64,000 nucleotides of DNA from Octopus vulgaris (taxonomy: Eukaryota): contig OX597823.1 in NCBI GenBank assembly GCA_951406725.2, positions 49,352,001 to 49,416,000 of the forward strand, read 5' to 3'. The translations under genes were made by a program, and so were the position numbers. The notes under the pieces were generated by a model. The model made no database searches. It saw only the letters and a list, made by a program, of their open reading frames with translations, and was not told where the DNA came from. Below, piece after piece: positions 15,993 to 31,229 of the stretch (position 1 is its first letter; each line of letters begins with the position of its first letter).

Positions 15993-16029
<37 letters not shown>

Positions 16030-16182
16030 ATTTGCCAACACAACATGATAGTCTTCTGCAGGACGATGCTGCTACTTTTAGCCCAGGAAAACATTTTCTC
16101 CACCTGGCTACCAACACATGATCTGTGTCCATATACTGTGAGCAAGCGAGTCTACTACTCCCTTTCTAGCCACACTTACACG

Positions 16183-16232
<50 letters not shown>

Positions 16233-26838: not shown

Positions 26839-26880
<42 letters not shown>

Positions 26881-27035
26881 TGACGTATATTTGCCATTTG
26901 AATATGGCTAACCCCTAAGGGTGGATGCTACTGTAGTTTGTAGCCCCAGGAGGACACCTCCTCCAGCTGGCTATAGACACACTTTCTGTGCCCTATCAGT
27001 AGGGAAGCCATCCTTCCCGTCTTCAACTTATGATA

Positions 27036-27080
27036 CACACGGACTTGAGTTTCAGGGTATTGACCCGTCATCGGCGTGTG
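27036..27080 (-). ncRNA. Type I hammerhead motif, CCGAUGA core variant (left arm)
   Basis: Exact reverse complement of 27208-27252. Confidence 0.75.
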
Positions 27081-27207
27081 ACAATCATAGTTTGAAAAAG
27101 TGAAATCATTGTTTGATTTCACTTTTTCAATATCAGTGTCAATCGATACTGGAAAAAGTATATGTATTTGTGAAGGGAACCTACTTCTCATCGACAACTA
27201 TGATTGT

Positions 27208-27252
27208 CACACGCCGATGACGGGTCAATACCCTGAAACTCAAGTCCGTGTG
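27208..27252 (+). ncRNA. Type I hammerhead motif, CCGAUGA core variant (right arm)
   Basis: CACACG-CCGATGA-CGGGT-CAAT-ACCCT-GAAA-CTCAAG-TC-CGTGTG; stem I extends via aactatgat/atcataagtt; predicted cleavage after 27246. Confidence 0.75.
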
Positions 27253-27459
27253 TATCATAAGTTGAAGACGGGAAGGATGGCTTCCCTTTGCAAATACTGA
27301 TAGGGCACAGAAAGTGTGTCTATAGCCAGCTGGAAGAGGTGTCCTCCTGGGGCTACAAACTACAGTAGCATCCACCCTTAGGGGTTAGCCATATTCAAAT
27401 GGCAAATATACGTCACGATGTGTTGCTGCTACTGTTTATAACTCGCTCTGAGATTTATC

Positions 27460-27494
<35 letters not shown>

Positions 27495-27496
<2 letters not shown>

Positions 27497-27780
27497 GTGC
27501 AGGAGTGGCTGTGTGGTAAGTAGTTTGCTTACCAGCCACAAGGTTCCGGGTTCAGTCCCACTAAGTGGGACCTTGGACAAGTGTCTTCTACTATAGCCTT
27601 GGCCTGACCAAAACCTTGTGAGTGGATTTGGTAGACGGAAACTGAAAGAAGTCCAGCGTATATATATATATATGTATATATATGTGTGTGTGTTTGTGTG
27701 TCTGTGTTTGTCCCCTCACCAACATCGCTTGACAACCGATGCTGGTGTGTTTACATCCCCGTAACTTATCGGTTCGGCAT
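27495..27780 (+). mobile_element. SINE family A, 3'-truncated
   Basis: Intact tRNA-like head and body matching 31357. Confidence 0.88.
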
Positions 27781-28209
27781 CTTATCAAATATTAAACATT
27801 TGAAGTCGAAGATTAGGAAATAAGAAAAAATTGGAAATTAAAACAGTTTGTTCTCATATTCTGCATGTAGATAAGAACATGTTTTATATACATATAGTTG
27901 TCTAAGAAGCCATAAGTCAGGAAAATATATCTTCTTATATTTGTCAATAGAGTGAGTATATTGATCAACGTACACAGCATTATAGATCCATTTCAGCCAA
28001 ATGTACCAATCAATTTTGCACAAGGTATGAGATAATTAAATATTAGATAGGTTGGTTACATAACACCAGACTTTTTCTATATCTGCAACATGTGAAGAGT
28101 ATGTAGTGTTTGCTAAGTAACCTGTAATATAATATCTGGTTATCTGATACCAAGTGCAAAACTGATATAAGATCGACTGAAATGCATTTGTAATACTGTA
28201 TACTTTCAT

Positions 28210-28293
28210 TATACTAAAATTGGAATGATACAGAGATGATTAGTATGGCCCCCGCACATGCCTGACACACAAATTCATGAAGTGTTCCATATT
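28210..28293 (+). pseudogene. U6: U6 snRNA pseudogene lacking the 5' stem-loop
   Basis: tatactaaaattggaatgatacagagatgattagtatggcccc...tgacacacaaattcatgaagtgttccatatt aligns to U6 including ACAGAGA; many substitutions, including AGC to AGT. Confidence 0.92.
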
Positions 28294-28569
28294 CGTTTTC
28301 TTTTTAGGCACAAGCATGGCTGGGCCTTATGTATGGGTGGTTTTAGTTGATAAAAACTGAAAGAAGACTGTCATACATATTCTTAGATATCTATGTAGTC
28401 TGTGTGTCATTGTGTTTGTGTTTCGCCCTCACTTCAGCTTAACAACTGTTGTTGGTGTGTTTATGTACCTGTAACTTAGCAGTTTGGTAAAACATACTGA
28501 TAAAATCAGTACCAGACTTAAAAAAGAAAGAGAAAGTGCTGGGGTCAATTCATTTGATAATGATACTTA

Positions 28570-28780
28570 TTTCAAATTTGGCACAAGGCCAGCAATTTCA
28601 GGGGAGAGGATAAGTTGATAACATCGAGCCCAGTGTTGAACTGGTAGTTATTTTATCAACAGCAAAAGGATGAAAAACAAAGTTGCTCTCAGCAGAATTT
28701 GAACACAGAATATAAAGATAGGCAAAATACCACAAAGAATTTTACCCAGTGTGCTAACAATTCTGCCAGCTGCCACCCTA
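28570..28780 (-). mobile_element. SINE family B, diverged
   Basis: Family B block in reverse orientation. Confidence 0.8.
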
Positions 28781-29160
28781 CAGTTAGTTAGCTATGATAT
28801 TAAATGACAAAATGGTAATCTCAAAGAGCTATGATTTTTCAGGCAAAGAAAATGGCCAATTAATTTACACTTTGCAAATATAACTGCAGGAAGGGTATCA
28901 GGCTGCAGAAAATCTACCGAAACAAATTTCATCATACCTTTGCAAGCATGGAAAAGCAGATGTTAAAATGACAATGATGATGATGGTGGTGGTAGTGGTG
29001 GAGGTGGTGGTGATGGTGGCAGCAGCAGTGTTGGTGGTGTTTGTGGTTGTGGTGGTGGTGATGGTGGTGATTACAAATCAATGATGGAGCTTCTGTTCAA
29101 TCCCTTGTCCCAATAGAACTATCAGGTAAGTCACCCTCAAATCATTCATACACAATTGTT

Positions 29161-29338
29161 TTAACACCTTAGCATTCAGACCGGCTTTATCAAGTACAAT
29201 TATTCTACCTGTTTTAAGTTCAATCTAACTAGACCCAACCTCTCACACCTAACCTACAATAACATTCTAAAAATAAACAATCAGATCATTGAACTCTCAA
29301 AGAAACAAGACAGAGTAATCTAAAAGCTAAAAGGTTAA
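29161..29338. mobile_element. piggyBac-like MITE
   Basis: TTAA at both ends; TIRs caccttagcattcaga / tctaaaagctaaaagg; a second copy at ~38770-38974 ends tctgaatgctaaaggg|ttaa. Confidence 0.65.
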
Positions 29339-30818
29339 ATAAAGAGCACATAAGCTGATGTAGGCCTCGATACACAAAGACAGAGAATGGTCTTGAAACA
29401 CAAATGATCATAGTTTTGTTCACTCAAGATTATTCTGGGACTAAACAACAATAACAACTTAAAATGTAATTAAAGTCAAATTTTACCTGTCAGTTTTTTA
29501 TATTCAAATCACAAATGGTTTAGAAATCTTTGACTAACAAATGATATAAAAAAAGATCCATTCTTTTTATTACATATTCATATAAGTTGAAGGTATAACT
29601 AGATTTTTTGTTCACTTTTATTTCTAGTTTTTATGTCTTCATGTTGAAGAATTTTGTGGTAGTTGCTGCTACTGCTGTTGTAGTTGCTGTCTTTTCTACT
29701 GCTATAGCCATTCAACCATGAAGTACAAGAGAGCCTGTTATCCATCAAGCAAGTTGAGAAACAAAGTTTTTTTCGTTTTCTGTTTGTTTATGCCTTGTCA
29801 TCTCATGCAGTGAAGTTTGAATTCATTAAGATATGAGTTGAAATCCTGAACCTTAAGCTATTATATATGTCAGATTTTAAACATAAATAACATCCAAATG
29901 ATAGTTTTTTGATGGTATCTTTTTGAATAGGTTGAGTCTCAAAATGTCTTTAAAATAGGTTGAGTATACAAAACATTGAAAAAATTCCAAGCAAAGTAAA
30001 TATTAAATGTTATTAGTAAAAGTAGATATGAAAGAAAGAATAGCTACAAACATCAAAGAATTTTTTTTTTAAGAAAGAAAACAGATTTCTTCAATCATTT
30101 AGCTGACAATATGATATGAAATTAACAGGGACTGTTTGAATGGTGGATAGGTTATTGAACTATTATATTAGAAATAAATATTCTTTATTCAATGTGTGCC
30201 AAAAGCTATGTGAAGAAATATAGCTCCTTGTTTTATTCACAGAAAGTCATATCACAGAGTAGAAAGACAGACAAAATGAATACTATTATTTAAGTAAAAT
30301 TCTCTCACCTCTTTAGCATTATCAAATTTAATGTCCTACATCTTTACCACACCCCATTTAATGAATATGGTATTTATTTTGATAAATTCTAAAGGGTTAA
30401 AGATTATCTCACATCCTCATACACGGTTTTAACTGCAAAGTGGTCTAAACATTCAGTTACCAAAAATTTATTTCAATATAAACTGAGCATTCGAAGATTT
30501 AGTTTTAGCTACTATGATATATATATTAATCCACACATGGTACTTACATGTTATGGAAAAATCACTCAAAACTTTGATGAGCTGAGCATCAGTGCAAACT
30601 GGATCCTGGTCAGTCAAATATTATTTTACTTCTATTACAAACCTCTTTTGGCCACAGCACACACTCAAAAATGTTTTTGCTAAAGCCTTTTTCAATACAA
30701 AAGATTTCAATACATGTCATCCTTTGTTTCTTTCTCTTCATTTTATTTGTGTTATCTATCTCAAACTTACTTTGTGAATATAAACACAGGTATATTTTCA
30801 GTAAAACAATTTATTATG

Positions 30819-31229
30819 TAGAATAGTTGTATACTGTCAATCTAACACGAACGTGTATAGCCCTAGGAAGCATCGAACGCCTCCTGATGGCTTTGACACA
30901 TTTTTCCCTGTGTCCTTATATACATTTACGAAGGGGAGACAAACACCCCCAGCCACCGAAGCTGCATCTAGGGACACGTGTTTCAGGATCATTGTCCTTC
31001 ATCGGCCTAGAGTAGCAGACACCGGTCAGCTGGTGATATTTGTCTCGACTTCGCAATTGTATATATCTATAATTCAGTGAAGTCTATTCACTGATTATCA
31101 AAATAAGAAATACTGAATTTCTAAATCTCTCGTAGAGACATGTATGGTGGTGGGGTGATAGAATAGTTGTATACTGTCAATCTAACACGAACGTGACGGT
31201 AGGGGGGTACACCACCGGTGTATAGCCCT
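30819..31229 (-). mobile_element. Hammerhead-bearing non-coding element in partial head-to-tail arrangement (period 340 nt)
   Basis: Identical 37-bp repeat at 30819-30855 and 31159-31195, plus a shared gtgtatagccct; central hammerhead; colinear with 27092-27460. Confidence 0.85.
30967..31011 (-). ncRNA. Type I hammerhead motif, CCGAUGA core variant
   Basis: TCTAGG-CCGATGA-AGGA-CAATGA-TCCT-GAAA-CACGTG-TC-CCTAGA: perfect stems I and II, palindromic stem III ACACGTGT, GUC site. Confidence 0.82.

What the first reader, a model, noticed from the sequence alone, without database searches (positions are those of the whole stretch)
26877..31229. Candidate retrozyme-like RNA family with a shared non-canonical CCGAUGA hammerhead
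Seen: 27092-27460 (+) and 30819-31229 (-) are diverged but colinear. Both run: upstream AGTGAA/TTCACT hairpin; type I hammerhead; GGG../..CCC hairpin; G(G/A)CACA/TGTGTC hairpin; AGCC...GGCT stem; CGTCACG.TGTT tail. Stems differ in sequence yet still pair (stem I CACACG/CGTGTG vs TCTAGG/CCTAGA; stem II GGGT/ACCC vs AGGA/TCCT; stem III ACT/AGT vs ACAC/GTGT). Both carry CCGATGA instead of CUGANGA (U4C), and neither has a credible ORF. Established: type I hammerheads with tiny palindromic stem III occur in Penelope-like element terminal repeats and in metazoan non-LTR retrozymes, which can form circular RNAs. Inference: a ~340-370-nt self-cleaving mobile RNA under structural selection, with a fixed core variant that canonical motif searches would miss. 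I cannot verify novelty. The 27 kb copy has a C-U mismatch closing stem II.
Basis: partly seen in the sequence, partly recalled or inferred. Interest (0 to 1): 0.88.

Follow-up and report, generated by a model that had tools for sequence, protein, structure and literature searches.

The report
Retrozyme family toggling hammerhead core letter
These are two copies of a many-copy, protein-less jumping repeat of a known kind, predicted to carry a self-cutting RNA and likely pasted in by Penelope-type transposon enzymes; its odd core letter is not fixed but was gained and later lost again in spreading lineages, which offers natural pairs for testing whether cutting speed matters.

Summary
The two hammerheads are real and both carry C4. 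They belong to two homologous families of non-coding units, A (352 nt) and B (363 nt), 62% identical. The families have at least 1,099 and 483 genomic matches. Stems covary. Copies end at two fixed 3' sites, mostly at (TA)n, and 53 of 53 classifiable head-to-head pairs use one site each. That is the Penelope two-start-site footprint. A young Neptune-type element with open frames shares this footprint but has a different hammerhead. So these are animal non-LTR retrozymes, a known kind.

U4C is not fixed. It holds in B (37 of 39 loci). In A it was gained from U4 ancestors and later reverted in a young lineage. Two structural core patterns give 828 C4 and 767 U4 matches genome-wide. U4C is already known from a viroid (PMC3088659). 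Cleavage and circles are untested. This scan noted similar retrozymes and U4C before, in this genome and others.

The parts
26877..27092 (-). Family A inverted arm: unit position +302 round to +173 (counted from the cleavage site), ends at RT start site 1 against (TA)n; holds a C4 hammerhead (core 27074-27042); 8-nt deletion
27092..27108 (-). 17-nt fold-back piece at the inversion junction (reverse complement of 27114-27130); it creates the AGTGAA/TTCACT hairpin and is not part of the unit
27105..27462 (+). Family A direct arm: one full 352-nt unit plus about 6 nt, ends at RT start site 2 (+216) against (TA)n
27196..27264 (+). Type I hammerhead of family A with extended stem I (UGU/U internal loop); core 27214-27246, C4 at 27215, predicted cut between 27246 and 27247
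26840..26876 (.). (TA)n target, left flank
27463..27491 (.). (TA)n target, right flank
30819..31229 (-). Family B partial tandem: unit +109 through one full round to +178 (site 1), about 23 nt deleted near 30855; no (TA)n at this copy's 3' end
30955..31023 (-). Type I hammerhead of family B; core 31005-30973, C4 at 31004, predicted cut between 30973 and 30972
31159..31195 (-). 37-nt direct repeat with 30819-30855: the overlap of the partial tandem

Best explanation
The two elements are copies of two homologous, ORF-less retrozyme families that are likely reverse-transcribed in trans by an endonuclease-bearing Penelope-like element, and whose hammerhead likely still cuts, more slowly, when position 4 is C. 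Shown: units of 352 and 363 nt occur as dispersed partial tandems and head-to-head inversions. Their 3' ends sit at two fixed internal sites 170-240 nt downstream of the hammerhead cut, mostly at (TA)n, and paired arms use one site each. Position 4 changed U to C to U along family A's master lineage and is C in all B masters sampled. Inferred steps: (1) a read-through transcript folds so that the long extended stem I brings the two ends of a unit together; (2) the hammerheads cut, probably as dimers through the palindromic stem III, and the monomer may be ligated into a circle; (3) a Neptune-type protein, probably acting as a dimer, nicks both strands of (TA)n DNA and primes cDNA at the two internal sites; (4) cDNA usually runs across the cut site and often past one unit length, and the two cDNAs join by microhomology to give the inverted structure. 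C4 would be a tolerated, near-neutral, reversible state rather than a new catalytic design.
For: Two 3' sites: 94 of 100 A segments and 69 of 74 B segments; 30 of 30 and 23 of 23 classifiable inverted pairs are site 1 plus site 2. This matches the two RT start sites and 'tail' shown in vitro for a Penelope element (PMC11167929, parts 1-2 of 4 read). Helper candidate: 150 scored matches at 94-100% identity, many with an 811-aa open frame, RT domain PF00078, two ends about 40 nt apart at (TA)n. One chimeric insertion joins a B-related unit head-to-head to that element with no TA spacer. Covariation over 35 hammerheads: 87.9% of cells paired against 69.4+-1.0, 148 double changes against 41.6, 0 of 500 shuffles. 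Whole unit: 32 of 57 pairs with a compensatory change; circular fold z about -8 for both units. U4 in A is lineage state, not CpG decay: C4 158, U4 107, G5A control 6. Tree with position 4 masked: C4 clade 100/93, nested U4 reversion 100/96. C4 lineages make up 38 of 63 loci in a core-independent A sample. Rare variants are shared between units of one insertion, with an A>G excess (12 of 53 against 48 of 554, p=0.003), which fits one RNA template and editing. U4C lowers activity in vitro but supports viroid infectivity (PMC3088659, passage).
Against: No cleavage or circle was observed. 39 of 47 A and 18 of 21 B cDNAs that reach the cut site run through it. The excess of 5' ends within 7 nt is modest in A (8 of 47; p about 0.02 against mean hazard, window chosen after the fact) and absent in B (3 of 21); few ends fall exactly at +1. 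Core invariance within the young lineages is not significant by itself (0 of 13 against 43 of 339 columns, p=0.18; 0 of 13 against 21 of 350, p=0.45). Most of the 35 rows in the covariation set were picked by a core pattern and are related, and the stem II closing pair holds in only 20% of them. Shared-variant counts include the same variant counted in several comparisons. In the chimera both arms end at site 1, unlike the rule, and the unit is only 72% like B. No sequence likeness between the Neptune-type element and A or B was found.
Confidence: 0.72

Rival explanations
1. C4 hammerheads are effectively silent. These lineages spread as uncut read-through RNAs, and the fold is kept because the Penelope protein binds it. 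Mobilisation is as in the best explanation, but without cutting or circles.
For: Hammerhead-dead mutants did not affect insertion in vitro for the anole element, and unprocessed RNA was the main substrate (PMC11167929). Most cDNAs cross the cut site. Family A reverted to U4. 8 of 9 Xenopus retrozyme dimers showed no cleavage (bioRxiv 10.64898/2026.07.22.740005).
Against: The other 13 core positions are the same in A and B masters at 62% overall identity, with no lineage-level change in either (weak statistically). Stem III stays palindromic through many different sequences. Some C4 copies have 5' ends within 4 nt of the cut. Units of one insertion share rare variants.
Confidence: 0.17
2. The units are solo terminal repeats (pLTRs) of an autonomous Penelope-like family not yet found, and have no life cycle of their own.
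For: Vertebrate retrozymes are related to pLTRs (bioRxiv 10.64898/2026.07.22.740005). The insertion footprint is Penelope-like. Only one Penelope clade was searched by protein.
Against: Units run head-to-tail with no ORF between them, up to 9 in a row. In the 319 loci fetched, A or B was never joined to a Penelope ORF in pLTR position; the nearby ORFs I inspected were separated by microsatellite or other DNA. The Neptune-type element carries a different, minimal U3-A8 hammerhead. A pLTR origin long ago is not excluded.
Confidence: 0.06
3. Position 4 is under selection as a rate control: slower C4 ribozymes give more uncut or stable template and were favoured for a time.
For: C4 arose in several lineages (A, a D sub-lineage, B, and apparently the basal C/G families), while no other core letter changed at lineage level. 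C4 lineages made most recent copies in the samples.
Against: A young A lineage reverted to U4 and spread well (25 of 63 loci). C4 and U4 lineages do not differ in 5' ends at the cut (3 of 25 against 5 of 22, p=0.45). U/C is a transition and C4 sits in a CpG, so drift between two tolerated states is enough.
Confidence: 0.15
4. Satellite or MITE-like DNA spread by DNA-level mechanisms, with a chance or relic hammerhead.
For: Some copies are tandem arrays or palindromes.
Against: Fixed 3' ends with variable 5' truncation, the strict site 1/site 2 pairing, and the A>G excess.
Confidence: 0.02

Closest known systems
Metazoan non-LTR retrozymes (Cervera and de la Pena 2020, PMC7229834; passages and parts 2-3 of 6 read)
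   Same: Short non-coding repeats with a type I hammerhead, GC under 50%, highly self-paired predicted circle; mussel units are 350-390 bp; axolotl HHR_Amex2 also has a mismatch closing stem II.
   Different: Position 4 is C in many lineages; mostly dispersed partial tandems and inversions; expression, cleavage and circles not shown here.
Non-LTR retrozymes as non-autonomous Penelope derivatives (Li, Clavereau, Pollet, bioRxiv 10.64898/2026.07.22.740005; parts 1-3 of 5 read, supplements closed)
   Same: Co-occurrence with autonomous Penelope-like elements; monomers, dimers and multimers.
   Different: That work rests on pLTR homology in vertebrates. Here the link is the insertion footprint, and no pLTR homologue was found.
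Penelope-like element insertions, Neptune clade and anole Poseidon PAc (PMC8557442, passages; PMC11167929, parts 1-2 of 4)
   Same: Partial tandems, inverted 5'-truncated arm, optional tail between two RT start sites, (TA)n or AT-rich targets, hammerhead upstream of the start sites.
   Different: No ORF; tail 43-55 nt against 30-40 reported; canonical-size hammerhead rather than the minimal form.
U4C hammerhead of a viroid (Ambros and Flores 1998, cited in PMC3088659; the paper itself was not held; the viroid's name PLMVd and an about 8-fold rate drop are recalled)
   Same: Same core change, reported as lower activity in vitro yet sufficient in vivo.
   Different: Here it is carried by genomic master lineages with hundreds of copies, and is gained and reverted.
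Penelope-associated hammerhead variants (Cervera and de la Pena 2014, PMC4209133, parts 1-2 of 4 read; Lunse et al. 2017 not held)
   Same: Palindromic stem III predicted to act as dimers; U3-A8 core variant, which the helper candidate carries.
   Different: U4C is not mentioned in the parts of PMC4209133 read; Lunse et al. could not be checked and may list it.

Membership tests
Metazoan non-LTR retrozyme | Type I hammerhead inside a short (150-450 bp) repeat unit | tested here: met
   352 and 363 nt units with one hammerhead each; covariation; core differs at position 4 in part of the family
Metazoan non-LTR retrozyme | Occurs as tandem copies, dimers to multimers | tested here: met
   9-unit array and many partial tandems
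Metazoan non-LTR retrozyme | No protein-coding capacity, no LTR arrangement, GC under 50% | tested here: met
   Longest ATG frames 57 and 38 aa sense; GC 43% and 45%; PBS and PPT were not searched
Metazoan non-LTR retrozyme | Highly self-paired monomer | tested here: met
   Predicted only: circular MFE -127 and -131 kcal/mol, z about -8 against 100 shuffles
Metazoan non-LTR retrozyme | Self-cleavage in vitro | not testable with these tools
   Needs transcription assays
Metazoan non-LTR retrozyme | Expressed as linear and circular RNA | not testable with these tools
   Only assembled contigs of runs not on record as RNA were available
Penelope-type insertion (works like) | Two 3' ends separated by an optional tail; inverted 5'-truncated arm; microsatellite target | tested here: met
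   163 of 174 segments at two sites; 53 of 53 classifiable pairs; 101 of 174 followed by (TA)n
Autonomous Penelope-like element | RT plus GIY-YIG ORF between pLTRs | tested here: not met
   No ORF in the units; no Penelope protein match in the window; no ORF-linked copy among 319 loci
Canonical hammerhead core | CUGANGA with U4, and a G10.1-C11.1 pair | tested here: not met
   C4 in all three window copies; 10.1/11.1 is C.U, C.A, U.U or A-U
Neptune clade (helper candidate) | C-terminal GIY-YIG with a CX2-5CxxC linker | tested here: inconclusive
   Motifs read by eye in the 811-aa frame; RT passes the Pfam cut-off, GIY-YIG is below it (E=0.067); no phylogeny was built

The most novel reading that the evidence does not exclude
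Hammerhead position 4 is an evolvable rate switch in animal retrozymes. Master lineages flip between a fast U4 and a slow C4 ribozyme, alongside changes at the stem II closing pair, to balance cutting against keeping an intact template for the Penelope enzyme. Family A's ladder (U4, then C4 with C.A, C.U and U.U closings, then U4 again) would be a natural series that tests what the hammerhead is for in Penelope-type transposition.
Probability: 0.18. Interest if true: 0.72.

Novelty: new variant of a known kind. Interest (0 to 1): 0.42.

Why it matters
The role of the hammerhead in Penelope and retrozyme transposition is open: it was dispensable in the one in vitro system (PMC11167929). This superfamily supplies matched natural C4/U4 pairs from one lineage, a candidate helper with open frames, and mapped RT start sites, so rate against spread can be tested directly. 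About half of the pattern matches for this superfamily carry C4, so CUGANGA string searches undercount such elements. The element class and the U4C change are each already known.

Tried and rejected
Rfam at gathering threshold found only U6 in the window. At E-value thresholds no hammerhead family was listed for the C4 window copies or for 6 loci holding U4 copies. CpG decay as the source of U4 in family A was rejected (G5A control 6 against 107). It does explain U4 in B (2 U4 and 2 G5A in 39 loci). Coupling of C4 to one stem II closing pair or to position 7 was not seen. A difference between C4 and U4 lineages in 5' ends at the cut was not found. Widely spaced hammerhead pairs (2-8 kb) were fetched as possible pLTR-ORF-pLTR elements; none was. 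Sequencing runs: no RNA holder listed; laid contigs of guessed-RNA runs show neither ends nor circles and are not used as evidence. Searches used a 6-nt spacer by my miscount; they revealed 6-nt stem III subfamilies and are reported as such. Literature: searches for hammerhead with U4C, CUGANGA/CCGANGA, CCGAUGA and octopus found no report of U4C in animal retrozymes. Two key papers were not held and bioRxiv supplements are closed, so absence from print is not established. Editing of an antisense strand as the origin of C4 was considered and not tested.
Full report
Observation. The window holds three type I hammerhead cores with CCGATGA: 27214-27246 (+), 27074-27042 (-) and 31005-30973 (-). The 27 kb element is an inverted arm (26877-27092), a 17-nt fold-back piece and a direct arm (27105-27462), between two (TA)n runs. 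The 31 kb element is a partial tandem with a small deletion. The two units are homologous end to end (210 of 338 aligned bases). The AGTGAA/TTCACT hairpin of the 27 kb copy is made by the inversion junction, and the CGTCACG match is not positional homology.

Family. The genome is 2.8 Gb in 227 contigs. DNA searches scored 40 of 3,148 (A) and 40 of 2,496 (B) candidates. Exact 3' words give 1,099 and 483 matches with zero in controls. The unit is 352 nt (A; a 9-unit array) or 363 nt (B). Degenerate core patterns show a wider superfamily with many subfamilies.

Structure. Across 35 hammerheads chosen for diversity, 87.9% of pair cells hold (shuffles 69.4+-1.0) with 148 double changes (41.6), 0 of 500 shuffles. 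All 10 stem I pairs show changes on both sides, and stem III stays palindromic. Most rows were found through a core pattern and are related, so this is not a probability. The 10.1/11.1 pair holds in only 20%. Twenty whole units give 57 consensus pairs, 32 with a compensatory change. Circular folds have z about -8 and close a long rod across the cut site.

Position 4. With A-specific flanks: C4 158, U4 107, G5A control 6, so U4 is inherited, not CpG decay. Structural patterns: C4 526 and U4 745 with a 5-nt spacer, C4 302 and U4 22 with a 6-nt spacer. These patterns miss the A lineages whose stem II starts TAGG or AAGG. A tree of 91 A copies was built with position 4 masked (104 usable loci, 13 of the largest C4 group dropped at random). 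It needs at least 5 changes: old subfamilies are U4, a C4 clade (100/93) follows, and a U4 reversion clade (100/96) is nested inside it. A small C4 clade lies in subfamily D, and two changes are single copies. The root is a midpoint. The old subfamilies' U4 is not an artefact of how they were picked: by hand count on contigs C1 and C2, D-type rows are about 20 U4 to 1 C4. In a sample picked by a 3' word, 38 of 63 A loci belong to C4 lineages and 25 to the reverted ones. B is C4 in 37 of 39 loci, with U4 as frequent as G5A; by hand count on C1 and C2 it is 31 C4 to 3 U4. No other core position changes at lineage level, though this alone is not significant.

Mobilisation. In core-independent samples (70 A and 50 B regions fetched; duplicates and matches under 80% dropped), 94 of 100 A segments end near +173 or +216 and 69 of 74 B segments near +179 or +234/241. 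(TA)n follows in 61 and 40 of them. All 53 head-to-head pairs with both arms classifiable have one arm at each site; 9 more had one unclassifiable arm. This is the two-start-site footprint shown for a Penelope protein in vitro (PMC11167929) and the architecture described for these elements (PMC8557442). The genome holds a young Penelope-like family: 150 scored matches at 94-100%, many with 811-aa open frames, and 97.4% mean DNA identity among top hits. It has the same two-end, (TA)n footprint and its own U3-A8 hammerhead; I call it Neptune-type from motifs only. It shows no likeness to A or B. One locus (L293) joins a B-related unit to it head-to-head without a TA spacer, though both arms there end at site 1. 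Helper identity is therefore likely, not shown.

Does the C4 ribozyme cut? Not shown. Most cDNAs cross the cut site (39 of 47, 18 of 21). A has a modest excess of 5' ends within 7 nt (8 of 47) and B has none; C4 and U4 lineages do not differ. Rare variants shared by units of one insertion (32 in A, 21 in B, some counted more than once) and their A>G excess fit a single, edited RNA template. They do not separate circles from template jumping or multimers. From the literature, U4C lowers activity in vitro yet permits viroid infection (PMC3088659, passages and section 8). I rate tolerated, still-cutting C4 as most likely.

Comparison and verdict. It meets every testable feature of metazoan non-LTR retrozymes (PMC7229834), now proposed to be non-autonomous Penelope derivatives (bioRxiv 10.64898/2026.07.22.740005). 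It is not an autonomous Penelope element. My searches found no paper on U4C in animal retrozymes, but Lunse et al. 2017 and Ambros and Flores 1998 were not held. Earlier notes of this scan describe similar retrozymes and U4C in this and other genomes; a look-up by sequence found none for this unit. What this study adds is the gain-and-reversion history of position 4. New variant of a known kind; interest 0.42.

Noticed in passing
window:28189-28296 (+): U6 snRNA-like copy, 72.3 bits, with several substitutions; probably a pseudogene.
   Followed up: no
window:15867-15948 (+) and 16021-16185 (-): Two older 5'-truncated members of the same superfamily, tail-to-tail around one (TA)n.
   Followed up: partly
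window:45841-45903 (-); also L176:428-487: A 60-nt piece of the unit inside another repeat whose end (hairpin then CTAGT) resembles a Helitron 3' end (label recalled); the same piece with the same flanks recurs in L176.
   Followed up: no
window:15575 (-): A single canonical-core hammerhead-like motif with a long stem II, not part of this family; may be chance.
   Followed up: no
window:17198-21131 (-): LINE-like element with frames resembling an endonuclease and an RT region, read by eye.
   Followed up: no
L293:616-865: B-related retrozyme arm joined to a Neptune-type arm through a 44-nt inverted Neptune piece, with no TA spacer; a possible template switch in one insertion event.
   Followed up: partly
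L312-L319: Young Neptune-type family with an 811-aa open frame and a minimal U3-A8 hammerhead; older relatives at about 58% amino acid identity.
   Followed up: partly
L022, L029, L164, L267 junctions: Several 5' ends stop 3-4 nt past the predicted cut, keeping GUC, rather than at +1; an RT stall just beyond a ligation junction is one untested reading.
   Followed up: partly
L155-L160 and L142-L149: Subfamilies with a 1-nt insertion at the centre of the stem III palindrome (ACAC-G-GTGT, ACCA-T-TGGT), which fits dimer pairing better than a monomer hairpin; about 300 matches, mostly B-type.
   Followed up: partly
L103:3654-3760: A retrozyme copy ends directly inside a Neptune-type terminal repeat of opposite orientation.
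   Followed up: no
L006:111-863, L069:1355-1951: Remnants that look like the endonuclease region of another Penelope clade; no Pfam match.
   Followed up: no
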